The notes beneath the pieces are model-generated. The model was not told the origin of the DNA and made no database searches. It worked only from the letters and a program-made list of their open reading frames with translations. A stretch of 62,429 nucleotides of DNA from Promethearchaeota archaeon. Its GTDB lineage: Archaea; Asgardarchaeota; Lokiarchaeia; Sigyniarchaeales; SOKP01. Each line of letters starts with the position of its first letter. Position 1 is the stretch's first letter. The DNA is taken from contig JAGXNO010000020.1 of assembly GCA_019894975.1 (NCBI GenBank), positions 1 to 62,429 of the forward strand, read 5' to 3'. Positions 30,158 to 31,745 of this stretch are shown here, piece after piece. The translations under genes and the position numbers were made by a program.

Positions 30158-30319
30158 CCTAACCTCTCTTAATTTTTAGTAAAAATTCCTCTTATAAAAT
30201 TTTTTACCCCCTCATATGGATTTGAAGATTGTCATAAACCTACATGAAATGACTAATTCCGTCGCATACTCCTTTTAAATAAACTTAAATTTAATTCTAC
30301 AATTGACTAAATATTGATT

Positions 30320-30350
30320 AAAAAAAAAAAAAAAAAATAAAAAAAAAAAA
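30320..30350 (+). repeat. A18-T-A12 homopolymer tract just upstream of cdhD
   Basis: Read directly from the sequence; ends 12 nt before the ATG at 30363. Confidence 0.85.
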
Positions 30351-30362
30351 CAATGATGTAAG

Positions 30363-31585
30363 ATGTCATTTGAAGAGTTAAGTAAAAAATTAACCGAATT
30401 TATGAAGGATACTGAAGAAATAGAGTTAACAGATGTCGATCTCTTTGCTGAATATCTCGAACTTCAGATGTTACCTAGTATAGTACAAGCCGCGGCTCAA
30501 GCTACTCTGCCTGGAGTTCCTGGAAAAGCAGAATGGACGCCTGCAAAATTCTCTCTTGATATAAATTATCCTGGTACAATTCAGACGATTGAATTTATAC
30601 GTTCTAACGGGAAAAAGGCTACAATAGGTGGAGAGGTTGTCCCTCCTTTTTACAACTTCCTAGGGCTTGATAAACGGAATCCTAATCCCCCATTGGTAAC
30701 CTATGACGTGTTTGATATGGGCTCTAAAATGATGCTTCCGAAACCTATCAAGCAGGAATACGGTGAAGTATTAGCAGATCCTGCTGAATGGGCCAAATTC
30801 GCAGTTGATAAGTTTGGAGCTGAATGTATAACATTTCATTCGCTTGAAATTGATCCTGCGATGGGTGATGCTCCAGTTTCACAGTCAGTAAAATATCTCG
30901 AAGAAATTCTACAAGCTGTTGACGTTCCTGTCATAATCGGATGCTCTGGTAATAAGAAAAAGGACGTCGAGCTTTTTAAAGAGACAGCGAGTATAACTGA
31001 AAGCGAGGTTTTGATGCTTTCAGCAGCAGATAAAGCCACATGGGAAGAAGTAAGAAATTGAGATCTACTCAATACCTTCAGATTCCCTTGGCTGTCAAAT
31101 ATGACCACAACTGCCTACTCTGGACAAGCCTCGACCTAAATAACCAAATTAAGATGAACAAGGACGCCCTAGAACTCGGTCTTCCACCTAACCGAATAGT
31201 AATGGACCCCACATGCGCCACGCTTGGATATGGCCTTGAATACAGCTTCAGCATTTACCAAAGGATGCGTATCGCGGGACTCCTCGGGGAAACCGATCTA
31301 GCTTACCCCATCAGCGGCGGCACTACCAATGCCTGGGGCGCACGTGAAGCCTGGATGTCAGAAAAACAAGCCCCTGAATGGGGACTGCGTCAATACAGAG
31401 GCCCTATATGGGAAATTCTAAATGCACTAAGCTTAAGTCTTGTTGGTTTAGACTTGGCGATGATGTTCCATCCCGTTGCTGCAAAACACATGAAAGAAAT
31501 CACACAGCAATTTTTCGCAGACATTCCTAAACATTTGGAAGAAAAGGGCTACACAGATTGGGTTAACGCCAATTTAAAACGTTAG
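30363..31585 (+). CDS. cdhD: Corrinoid iron-sulfur protein small subunit (ACDS delta), interrupted by a 29-nt intron; exons 30363..31052 and 31082..31585, 397 aa if spliced
   Basis: Two track ORFs (30363..31061 and 31040..31585) are the N- and C-halves of CdhD (IGGEVVPPFY, DPAEWAK, PVIIGCSGN..KD, RIVMDPT..LGYGLEYS, NAWGAREAW, MMFHP). Removing 31053..31081 joins them in frame. Confidence 0.92.
31053..31081 (+). other. Candidate bulge-helix-bulge (BHB) mRNA intron
   Basis: Outer helix GGGAA/TTCCC (extended by AGCCA/TGGCT), central 4-bp helix GAAG/CTTC, 3-nt bulges TAA and AGA, inner hairpin ATTGAG-atcta-CTCAAT. Cutting after the 2nd nt of each bulge restores the reading frame. Confidence 0.88.
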
Positions 31586-31745
31586 ATTTTCAATCTTTCT
31601 CTTTTTATTTTTTTAGAATATAGTAATAAGAATTATTTATTCCTGCTAAACTTAAAAAAGAATCAAGATCTTTTGTCTTAAATCTTTACATAACCAAAGA
31701 TATTCTGATGACAGATTCATATCAAAAAAAAAAGAAAGATGAATT

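What the first reader, a model, noticed from the sequence alone, without database searches (positions are those of the whole stretch)
31035..31093. Canonical bulge-helix-bulge intron inside the protein-coding gene cdhD: candidate mRNA splicing in an Asgard archaeon
Seen in sequence: cdhD is split into two out-of-frame halves by a short insert carrying an in-frame TGA (31059-61). The junction folds as 5'-AGCCA-cat-GGGAA[31042-46]-GAAG[47-50]-TAA bulge[51-53]-G-aa-ATTGAG-atcta-CTCAAT-a-C-CTTC[76-79]-AGA bulge[80-82]-TTCCC[83-87]-t-TGGCT. That is a 4-bp helix between two 3-nt bulges, flanked by helices on both sides. Established: the archaeal splicing endonuclease EndA cuts BHB motifs after the second nucleotide of each bulge and RtcB ligates the ends. 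Such introns are common in tRNA and rRNA, while the classic mRNA example is crenarchaeal cbf5. Applying the rule removes 31053..31081 (29 nt) and gives GAA GAA GTA|ATT CCC TTG (WEEV-IPLAVKYDH), an unbroken 397-aa CdhD. Structure and frame restoration agree independently. Inference: this is not a pseudogene, and expression of a Wood-Ljungdahl methyl-transfer subunit depends on the tRNA-splicing machinery. Unspliced mRNA would give a 232-aa truncated protein, which could act as a post-transcriptional switch. Other 'frameshifted' Asgard genes may hide similar introns.
Basis: partly seen in the sequence, partly recalled or inferred. Interest (0 to 1): 0.97.

Follow-up and report, generated by a model that had tools for sequence, protein, structure and literature searches.

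The report
tRNA-type intron splitting Asgard cdhD
The only cdhD gene (a Wood-Ljungdahl methyl-transfer subunit) of this Loki-type Asgard archaeon is broken by a 29-base insert shaped exactly like the introns archaea cut out of tRNAs, and relatives carry such inserts at three sites in the same gene. The mRNA is therefore very probably cut and re-joined by the tRNA-splicing enzymes, which published work shows for only one other archaeal protein gene (cbf5).

Summary
cdhD (30363-31585, +) is split into two frames by 29 nt (31053-31081). The insert lies in a helix / 3-nt bulge / 4-bp helix / 3-nt bulge / helix motif.

Cutting after the second base of each bulge gives a 397-aa CdhD. It is colinear with 85 orthologs, with no gap or extra residue.

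Comparative evidence is strong:
- Four other Promethearchaeota MAGs carry a 30-nt insert at the same codon. Two have an in-frame TAA, and the helices show compensatory changes.
- Other relatives carry BHB inserts at two further cdhD sites (32/33 nt and 36 nt).
- Insert-bearing genes show dN/dS of 0.02-0.09, the same as intact sisters.
- Four independent assemblies of this species hold the identical insert. All 14 strain SNPs are synonymous in the spliced frame.
- The genome encodes two EndA paralogues and RtcB.
- EF-1alpha, dnaG and a dehydratase-activator gene carry similar inserts. I parsed the first two as BHB by eye, with two G-U pairs in each central helix; my scan caught the third.

No RNA data could be obtained, so splicing is inferred, not observed. 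The "regulatory switch" idea has no support. Insert presence is patchy among close relatives.

This scan has already reported the same kind of intron in other genes of this genome and in other Asgard genomes.

The parts
30363..31052 (+). cdhD exon 1 (codons 1-230, ends ...ATWEEV)
   Evidence: ORF list. CdhD profiles: Pfam PF03599 positions 7-135, NF003375 positions 96-275.
31053..31081 (+). 29-nt BHB intron. It shifts the frame and holds the in-frame TGA at 31059-61.
   Evidence: Absent from 73 of 85 orthologs. A homologous 30-nt insert sits at the same codon in 4 others. Boundaries equal the canonical EndA cut sites.
31082..31585 (+). cdhD exon 2 (codons 231-397 plus TAG stop, starts IPLAVKYDH...)
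   Evidence: NF003375 positions 279-440 from residue 4, so residue 1 corresponds to position 276, contiguous with exon 1's 275. dN 0.058-0.078 against saturated dS.
31034..31038 (+). Distal exon-exon helix, 5' strand (AGCCA); pairs with 31089-31093
   Evidence: Pairing probability 0.72-1.0. The C:G pair here is U:A or U:G in the other bearers, a compensatory change at synonymous sites.
31042..31046 (+). Outer helix h, 5' strand (GGGAA); pairs with 31083-31087 (UUCCC)
   Evidence: Pairing probability above 0.96. Exon-exon helices are perfect in 5/5 bearers against 17/80 non-bearers.
31047..31050 (+). Central 4-bp helix H, exon strand (GAAG); pairs with intron 31076-31079 (CUUC)
   Evidence: 100% paired in 5 homologous introns, with A-U changing to U-G and U-A at the third pair.
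31051..31053 (+). 5' bulge UAA; predicted cut between 31052 and 31053
   Evidence: The position follows the rule that reproduces the ortholog sequence.
31054..31075 (+). Intron inner part h': G-C pair, small internal loop, 6-bp hairpin 31057-62/31068-73 with loop AUCUA
   Evidence: The hairpin is kept through 6 pairs with changes on both sides among the 5 introns.
31076..31079 (+). Central helix H, intron strand (CUUC)
31080..31082 (+). 3' bulge AGA; predicted cut between 31081 and 31082
31083..31093 (+). 3' strands of outer helix h (UUCCC, 31083-87) and of the distal helix (UGGCU, 31089-93), both exon 2

Best explanation
The 29 nt at 31053-31081 are an archaeal bulge-helix-bulge intron inside the cdhD coding sequence.

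Proposed mechanism:
1. In the pre-mRNA, exon 1 (GGGAA-GAAG) pairs with the intron's 3' end (CUUC) and with the first bases of exon 2 (UUCCC). The intron's own hairpin closes the other side.
2. The splicing endonuclease EndA cuts after the second base of each 3-nt bulge. This genome has two EndA paralogues, as in the (alpha-beta)2 enzymes reported for Asgard and TACK archaea.
3. RtcB joins ...GAAGUA to AUUCCC..., giving an mRNA for a normal 397-aa CdhD.

Shown:
- the motif;
- the exact colinear join;
- homologous and covarying introns at this codon, and at two other cdhD codons, in related species;
- purifying selection on both exons while the insert is present;
- presence of the enzymes;
- similar inserts in other genes of this genome, including EF-1alpha, for which a motif search found only one locus (a second DAPGH hit looks like aIF-2gamma).

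Inferred:
- that cutting and ligation really take place;
- that they are efficient enough to supply CdhD.

The intron looks dispensable and evolutionarily mobile, present or absent among close relatives, rather than regulatory.
For: (1) Motif and frame. The structure is as described. Excision gives 397 aa. The two halves abut in CdhD profiles, NF003375 positions 275|276. The junction string AADKATWEEVIPLAVKYDHN is the commonest among 85 orthologs, and none has a gap there.

(2) Same-site homologues. L016, L017, L036 and L114 carry 30 nt at the same codon. L036 and L114 have an in-frame TAA. The four in-frame translations share no conserved peptide.

(3) Covariation at site 1:
- 94.5% of cells are paired.
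- 8 pairs change on both sides.
- 0 of 500 shuffles reach the covariation score.
- Slid controls give 20-49% paired.
- The central helix is GAAG/CUUC, GAUG/CGUC, GAUG/CAUU or GAAG/CUUU.

(4) Two further BHB sites in cdhD of relatives:
- Site 2: 33 nt (two genes, in-frame TAA) or 32 nt (one gene, frameshifting), 3 genes in all; central helix CCCA/UGGG.
- Site 3: 36 nt, 6 genes; central helix CGCA/UGCG; two in-frame TAA.
- At each, the cut rule restores T-C-A-T-L.

(5) Selection. dN/dS is 0.02-0.09 for bearers against intron-less sisters, and 0.035-0.093 for intron-less pairs. This holds in both exons.

(6) Population evidence. Four independent assemblies (3 ENA samples, 1 Logan run) hold the identical 60-nt BHB core. 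All 14 variable positions are third-codon and synonymous in the spliced frame, 9 of them in exon 2.

(7) Exon synonymous sites keep the exon-exon helices: 5/5 bearers are perfect against 17/80 non-bearers.

(8) Enzymes and gene copy. There are two EndA hits and RtcB. Asgard EndA is reported as the (alpha-beta)2 type with the broad-specificity loop (PMC5829648). cdhD is single-copy, and cdhE and cdhC are present.

(9) Same genome. EF-1alpha (30 nt, in-frame TAA, joins DAPGHAD|FVKNMITG), dnaG (37 nt) and a dehydratase activator (30 nt) are interrupted in the same way. For EF-1alpha and dnaG I parsed the BHB by eye, with two G-U pairs in each central helix, which is why my scan missed them; the scan caught the activator.
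Against: - No RNA evidence.
- The BHB form is not the predicted minimum-energy fold of the free RNA (2.6 kcal/mol worse, about 6% of the ensemble).
- The inner helix next to the 5' bulge is a single G-C pair before an internal loop.
- Two relatives (L016, L017) have open in-frame 30-nt versions that could in principle be translated.
- My own genome-wide scan for BHB plus frame restoration showed no excess over decoy cut positions, because gene boundaries swamp it. I therefore cannot give an unbiased count of such introns.
Confidence: 0.88

Rival explanations
1. Pseudogene: cdhD of this organism was inactivated by a 29-nt insertion, or by a 1-nt deletion in an older 30-nt in-frame insertion. 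The fold would be incidental.
For: The insert shifts the frame and brings a TGA. Relatives have 30 nt, so this copy differs by one base.
Against: - Both exons are intact and conserved (dN 0.06, dS saturated).
- Strains that all carry the insert differ only by synonymous changes in the spliced frame.
- cdhD is single-copy, beside intact cdhE and cdhC hits.
- Twelve genes in different species carry inserts at three sites, always with a BHB and always with intact exons.
- EF-1alpha carries such an insert too.
Confidence: 0.03
2. Split gene: the two halves are translated separately and assemble without covalent joining. The halves would be the 232-aa N-part and a C-part starting at ATG 31040, which lies in the exon-2 frame.
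For: An ATG at 31040 opens a 181-aa ORF in the exon-2 frame. Synonymous-only SNPs in exon 2 fit any model in which that frame is translated.
Against: - The ATG is merely the conserved ACA-TGG (Thr-Trp) codons. It is missing in other bearers, which have ACT-TGG or ACG-TGG.
- No start signal is evident.
- The model does not explain the BHB, its covariation, or why the insert boundaries coincide with EndA cut sites at three sites.
Confidence: 0.04
3. Recoding during translation: ribosomes bypass or frameshift across the 29 nt, as in the phage T4 gene 60 hop.
For: A stop codon soon after the break and a hairpin in the gap resemble the gene 60 layout (the comparison is from my own knowledge).
Against: - There are no matched take-off and landing codons: GUA before the gap, CAG/AUU at its end.
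- Gap sequences differ between species while the exon-intron helix covaries. That is what an RNA-cleavage motif predicts, not a hop.
Confidence: 0.02
4. Assembly or sequencing artefact: the insert is not in the organism's DNA.
For: The genome is a metagenome-assembled draft of 175 contigs with 8.6% contamination.
Against: The identical 60-nt core is present in four independently assembled contigs from four samples, which are strain variants differing at other positions. Homologous inserts occur in other species' assemblies.
Confidence: 0.01
5. Miniature spliceosomal-type GT-AG intron (GUAAG...CAG, 31050-31081), another first-stage reading of the same bases.
For: The bases GUAAG and CAG are there.
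Against: - Removing 31050-31081 would delete the Val (Ile in one ortholog) that all 85 orthologs have at that position.
- The other four introns at this codon end in AA, not AG, and two begin GUAUG.
Confidence: 0.01

Closest known systems
cbf5 pre-mRNA intron of Crenarchaeota (Desulfurococcales, Sulfolobales; Watanabe 2002, Yoshinari 2006, Yokobori 2009 = PMC2738675)
   Same: A short BHB intron inside a protein-coding sequence. It occurs in archaea with a hetero-oligomeric EndA. It has lineage-specific presence and loss. It misleads gene callers (references seen).
   Different: Different gene (a CODH/ACS subunit, not an RNA-modification enzyme) and different phylum (Promethearchaeota, i.e. Asgard). 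There are three insertion sites within one gene. Distribution is very patchy among near relatives. In this genome it is one of several interrupted genes rather than a lone case. cbf5 splicing was shown experimentally; this one was not.
Archaeal tRNA and rRNA BHB introns (Marck and Grosjean 2003; heavily interrupted Asgard tRNA genes, bioRxiv 10.64898/2026.10.13.758758 and PMC11291895)
   Same: The same hBHBh' geometry and cut rule, and presumably the same enzymes. The host lineage is very rich in tRNA introns; ARAGORN recognises only 16 tRNAs in this 95%-complete genome. Repeated gains at sites able to form the motif are reported for Asgard tRNAs.
   Different: The host RNA is an mRNA, so excision must be exact to the base to keep the reading frame. 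It must also compete with translation of the unspliced message.
HAC1/XBP1 unconventional mRNA splicing in eukaryotes (Ire1 cleavage; ligation by tRNA ligase or RtcB)
   Same: Spliceosome-independent removal of a short intron from an mRNA at paired stem-loop sites. Ligation uses the tRNA ligase, and excision changes the reading frame (my own knowledge; RtcB/HAC1 reference seen).
   Different: The nuclease is Ire1, not EndA. The motif is two 7-nt loops, not a BHB. That splicing is a regulated stress switch, for which there is no evidence here.

Membership tests
Archaeal BHB (EndA/RtcB-spliced) intron | Two 3-nt bulges on opposite strands, each 3' of a 4-bp central helix | tested here: met
   GAAG/CUUC with bulges UAA and AGA. 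The same geometry occurs in 4 homologous introns and at two other cdhD sites.
Archaeal BHB (EndA/RtcB-spliced) intron | Flanking helices h (exon-exon) and h' (intron) | tested here: met
   h is 5 bp, plus a 5-bp distal helix. h' is one G-C pair, an internal loop and a 6-bp hairpin. In four relatives the 3' bulge faces an unpaired A, a relaxed form.
Archaeal BHB (EndA/RtcB-spliced) intron | Cutting after the second base of each bulge yields the functional mature RNA | tested here: met
   The 397-aa product is colinear with profiles and with 85 orthologs. No residue is gained or lost.
Archaeal BHB (EndA/RtcB-spliced) intron | Structure rather than sequence is conserved (compensatory changes) | tested here: met
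   Site 1 has 8 pairs with changes on both sides, 0/500 shuffles reaching the score, and slid controls well below. Site 3 is 99% paired but has little variation (35/500).
Archaeal BHB (EndA/RtcB-spliced) intron | Host encodes the splicing endonuclease and the RtcB ligase | tested here: met
   Two PF01974 hits, ORFs of 202 and 200 aa. RtcB gives a full-length hit. The subunit roles of the two EndA paralogues were not tested.
Archaeal BHB (EndA/RtcB-spliced) intron | Spliced RNA (and free or circular intron) exists in cells | not testable with these tools
No identical full-length protein is in the collection.
Archaeal BHB (EndA/RtcB-spliced) intron | The BHB is the stable fold of the free RNA | tested here: inconclusive
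   The outer helices and hairpin are predicted with probability above 0.9. The central helix competes with a slid register: -16.8 against -19.4 kcal/mol. The slid register is not available in the homologous introns.
Pseudogene | Relaxed selection or further disabling lesions in the exons | tested here: not met
   dN/dS is 0.02-0.09. There are no other stops or shifts. All 14 strain SNPs are synonymous.
Translational bypass / programmed frameshift | Matched take-off and landing codons, or a slippery site, at the break | tested here: not met
   None is visible at 31047-31087. The gap sequence varies between species while its pairing to the exon is kept.

The most novel reading that the evidence does not exclude
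The cdhD introns belong to an active population of tRNA-type mini-introns that colonise mRNAs in Promethearchaeota and move between species. The supporting observations are:
- three sites in one gene;
- homologous intron sequences in genes that are not each other's closest relatives (monophyly of bearers rejected at every site);
- bearer-specific exon variants reaching about 37 nt from site 3, as if intron plus flanks were passed on by recombination.

If so, the closest archaeal relatives of eukaryotes would have a working, expanding system of mRNA introns that does not need a spliceosome.
Probability: 0.3. Interest if true: 0.9.

Novelty: new member of a known kind. Interest (0 to 1): 0.8.

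Why it matters
Published work documents BHB splicing of an archaeal coding sequence only for cbf5 in Crenarchaeota. My searches of the held library found nothing for Asgard protein genes.

- **A central metabolic enzyme depends on it.** A core carbon-fixation and acetogenesis enzyme of a Loki-type Asgard archaeon cannot be made from its gene as written unless the tRNA-splicing machinery edits the mRNA. The same holds for EF-1alpha and dnaG in the same genome.
- **Genome annotation.** Gene callers report truncated CdhD fragments. Metabolic reconstructions could wrongly score the Wood-Ljungdahl pathway as broken.
- **Cell biology.** Splicing has to beat translation of the unspliced message in a cell without a nucleus.
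- **Intron evolution.** Introns come and go between close relatives at sites where the exon can form half of the motif, in the lineage closest to eukaryotes.

Tried and rejected
- **Spliced or intron-less form of this species.** I searched the protein collection with exon 1 for a 100%-identical full-length protein. The best identity was 92%.
- **Unbiased genome census.** I scanned G000 for BHB motifs (374,860 hits). I kept those whose excision joins two open frames of at least 60 codons each, and compared them with decoy cut positions shifted by 1-2 nt. Counts were equal at every threshold tried (about 2,500 each), because same-strand gene boundaries pass the filter. The scan also missed introns with two G-U pairs in the central helix, such as EF-1alpha and dnaG. 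The candidate list was too noisy to use, so no count is claimed.
- **Rfam.** No known RNA family matches 30300-31700 at E <= 1.
- **GT-AG reading.** Rejected; see rivals.
- **Foreign origin of the GC-rich tract after the intron.** Its nearest relatives belong to the same clade as those of exon 1, so no donor can be named.
- **gyrB insert.** I confirmed the 53-nt insert, but could not parse it into a canonical BHB by eye and did not pursue it.
Full report
**1. What is in the sequence**

The window is contig C88 of a 3.9-Mb draft genome. Record titles of close relatives name them Promethearchaeota or Promethearchaeia MAGs, that is, Loki-type Asgard archaea.

An ORF at 30363..31061 (232 aa) matches the N-terminal part of CdhD, the delta subunit of CO dehydrogenase/acetyl-CoA synthase. 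The stretch from 31082 to 31585, in another frame, matches the rest. In the NCBIfam profile NF003375, the first piece ends at residue V230 = position 275. The second begins I-P-L-A with A = 279, so I = 276. The two pieces abut with nothing missing and nothing extra.

- distal helix AGCCA/UGGCU;
- outer helix GGGAA/UUCCC;
- 4-bp helix GAAG/CUUC;
- 3-nt bulges UAA and AGA on opposite strands, each 3' of the central helix;
- a G-C pair, then a 6-bp hairpin.

This is the arrangement of a tRNA intron at position 37/38. The central helix joins exon to intron, and the enzyme cuts after the second base of each bulge (established knowledge; described). The rule removes 31053-31081 and yields a 397-aa protein without stops.

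The only slip in the finding is that AGCCA starts at 31034, not 31035.

**2. Is it more than chance?**

- The 81-nt region folds better than its shuffles (z = -2.5).
- A BHB of this stringency occurs at about 3.4e-4 per position and intron length in this genome. Here it sits exactly on the insert boundaries given by orthologs.
- One caveat: the nearest-neighbour model prefers a slid register of CUUC by 2.6 kcal/mol, so the central helix is a minority state of the naked RNA. That slid register needs the local repeat GAAGUAAG. It is not available in the homologous introns of other species, whereas the BHB register is kept in all of them.

**3. Relatives**

I collected cdhD from 54 genomes of the genus (45 with a match) and from the genome-contig collection. 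This gave 85 distinct sequences.

Seventy-three are uninterrupted; 39 of the 85, once inserts are removed, are 397 codons like this one. The spliced junction string AADKATWEEVIPLAVKYDHN is the commonest of all (37 of 85), and no ortholog has a gap there.

Twelve genes carry 14 inserts at three sites.

| Site | Position | Bearers | Length | Central helix | Effect on frame |
|---|---|---|---|---|---|
| 1 | V230\|I231 | this genome | 29 nt | GAAG/CUUC | frameshift plus TGA |
| 1 | V230\|I231 | L016, L017 | 30 nt | GAAG/CUUC, GAUG/CGUC | open |
| 1 | V230\|I231 | L036, L114 | 30 nt | GAAG/CUUU, GAUG/CAUU | in-frame TAA |
| 2 | within P-T\|C-A-T | L035, L037 | 33 nt | CCCA/UGGG | TAA |
| 2 | within P-T\|C-A-T | L038 | 32 nt | CCCA/UGGG | frameshift |
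| 3 | 9 nt further, T\|L | L016-L019, L093, L096 | 36 nt | CGCA/UGCG | two TAA |

At every site, cutting after the second base of each bulge restores the ortholog sequence and a stop-free frame, 397 codons in nine of the twelve genes; L038, L093 and L096 are a few codons short, the last two at least because tblastn matched them only to residues 392 and 394.

**4. Covariation**

- **Site 1 (five introns):** 94.5% of cells are paired. Eight pairs change on both sides. No shuffle of 500 reaches the covariation score. Slid controls pair only 20-49%.
- **The central helix is the most telling.** Where the exon codon is GAU (Asp) instead of GAA (Glu), the intron partner is G or A instead of U.
- **A synonymous exon pair also covaries:** GCC...UUG here against GCU...UUA elsewhere. 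Both exon-exon helices are perfect in 5/5 bearers against 17/80 non-bearers (the sequences are related, so this is not an independent sample).
- **The peptide is not conserved.** The in-frame translations of the 30-nt versions share no conserved sequence, and two hold stops. What is conserved is the RNA shape.
- **Site 3:** 99% paired but with little variation.

**5. Not a pseudogene, not an artefact**

- **Between species.** dN/dS between insert-bearing genes and their closest intact sisters is 0.02-0.09 in both exons. Pairs of intact genes give 0.035-0.093. This includes the two frameshifting cases.
- **Independent assemblies.** The exact 232-aa product of exon 1 is called on four contigs from four samples (three ENA assemblies, one Logan run).
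- **Identical core.** All four hold the identical 60-nt BHB core.
- **Strain SNPs.** The contigs differ from the window at 14 positions. Every one is a third-codon, synonymous change in the spliced frame, and nine lie in exon 2. Eight of those nine are clustered and may be one recombination event.
- **What this means.** Selection has therefore acted on exon 2 in that frame while the insert was present.
- **Limit of this test.** It does not separate splicing from independent translation of exon 2. That rival has only a fortuitous ATG (the ACA-UGG codons) in its favour, and it does not explain the motif.
- **Copy number.** cdhD is single-copy here, and cdhE and cdhC are present.

**6. Machinery and context**

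- The genome has two EndA paralogues of about 200 aa and a full-length RtcB. This fits the (alpha-beta)2 EndA with the broad-specificity loop reported for Asgard archaea (PMC5829648).
- ARAGORN recognises only 16 tRNA genes in this 95%-complete genome. This is in line with reports that Asgard tRNA genes are heavily interrupted at non-canonical positions.
- Earlier notes of this scan list many candidate mRNA introns in this genome. I checked four on the DNA.

| Gene | Place in G000 | Insert | Join restored |
|---|---|---|---|
| EF-1alpha | C107:21215-21244 | 30 nt, in-frame TAA, GCAG/UUGU | DAPGHAD\|FVKNMITG |
| dnaG | C87:33420-33456 | 37 nt, GGUC/GGCU | AIFGQ\|TEGLL |
| dehydratase activator | C22:42270-42299 | 30 nt, UGAU/GUCA | MND\|KCAAGTG |
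| gyrB | C66:7626-7678 | 53 nt, BHB not parsed | GLDGV\|RKRPAMY |

An interrupted EF-1alpha, for which I found only one locus, is hard to reconcile with anything but efficient removal of such inserts from mRNA.

Earlier notes also report RNA-derived contigs with exact excision in two other Asgard genomes. I did not test those.

**7. Evolution**

- Insert presence is patchy on the gene tree. At least 4, 3 and 6 changes are needed for sites 1, 2 and 3.
- With the flanks left out, the data reject a single clade of bearers at each site: AU p = 8e-44, 1.6e-4 and 0.009.
- Yet the introns at one site are clearly homologous to each other.
- Exon flanks of +-45 nt are more alike among bearers than in their intact sisters. 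For sites 2 and 3 this is 0.82-0.90 against 0.71-0.80, while the rest of the gene shows no such effect. Bearer-specific bases reach about 37 nt from site 3.
- Many independent losses, or spread of intron plus flanks by recombination, would both fit. I cannot decide between them.

**8. Comparison with what is known**

The mechanism proposed is that of the cbf5 pre-mRNA intron of Crenarchaeota (PMC2738675), and of tRNA and rRNA BHB introns. Every membership feature that sequence can test is met. Excision in vivo or in vitro is untested.

The differences from cbf5 are:
- the gene and the phylum;
- three sites in one gene;
- turnover among close relatives;
- the company of other interrupted genes in the same genome.

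In the held literature I found no report of BHB introns in Asgard protein-coding genes.

**9. Verdict**

- It is a new member of a known kind.
- Confidence that the insert is spliced out of the mRNA by the tRNA-splicing enzymes: about 0.88.
- This scan has already found the same kind of intron in other genes of this genome and in other Asgard genomes.

Noticed in passing
window 31082-31400: GC3 is 0.57 over the 270 nt that follow the intron. The same columns of 84 orthologs give 0.30-0.38 (2-3 SD lower), and dS to every relative is saturated there. The nearest relatives of the tract are still in the same clade, so no foreign donor is evident. The cause is unknown.
   Followed up: partly
L016:1624-1685, L035:958-1013 and homologues (cdhD of related MAGs): Two more BHB intron sites lie only 9 nt apart in the P-T-C-A-T-L segment of cdhD. 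Two genes (L016, L017) carry introns at sites 1 and 3 together.
   Followed up: yes
L016-L019, L093, L096, exon flanks of site 3: Intron-bearing genes share synonymous exon variants up to about 37 nt upstream of the intron. Their intact sister genes lack these variants. Either recombination spread the intron with its flanks, or a longer RNA structure constrains them.
   Followed up: partly
G000 C107:21215-21244; cdhD sites 2 and 3 in relatives: Several mini-introns share one design: a perfect 6-9 bp stem capped by an A/U-rich pentaloop (AAUUC, AUUUC, AUCUC, AUUCA). AAUUC occurs in EF-1alpha and in cdhD sites 2 and 3. This could be composition or a shared origin.
   Followed up: no
G000 whole genome: ARAGORN finds only 16 tRNA genes (6 with introns) in a genome rated 95% complete. 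Most tRNA genes are probably interrupted in ways this program cannot read.
   Followed up: no
L039:151-522 (G056, about 1.25 kb downstream of its intact cdhD): A decayed partial copy of cdhD begins at residue 273, the position of intron sites 2 and 3. It lies next to a withheld (N) repeat.
   Followed up: no
proteins P0008, P0023, P0035, P0053, P0075, P0106, P0111: Public collections hold CdhD fragments of 218-281 aa, some with many member sequences. Their ends roughly match the three intron sites. They are probably gene calls truncated by such introns.
   Followed up: no
L137 (ENA ERZ27271186), window 31537-31585: One strain variant has 8 synonymous differences packed into the last 50 nt of cdhD and none elsewhere in exon 2. 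This looks like a recombination tract.
   Followed up: no
window 30320-30352: A nearly pure A tract of about 33 nt lies directly upstream of the cdhD start region.
   Followed up: no
G000 C66:7626-7678: gyrB is interrupted by a 53-nt insert between GLDGV and RKRPAMY. I could not parse it by eye into a canonical 3-4-3 BHB; it may be a relaxed form.
   Followed up: partly
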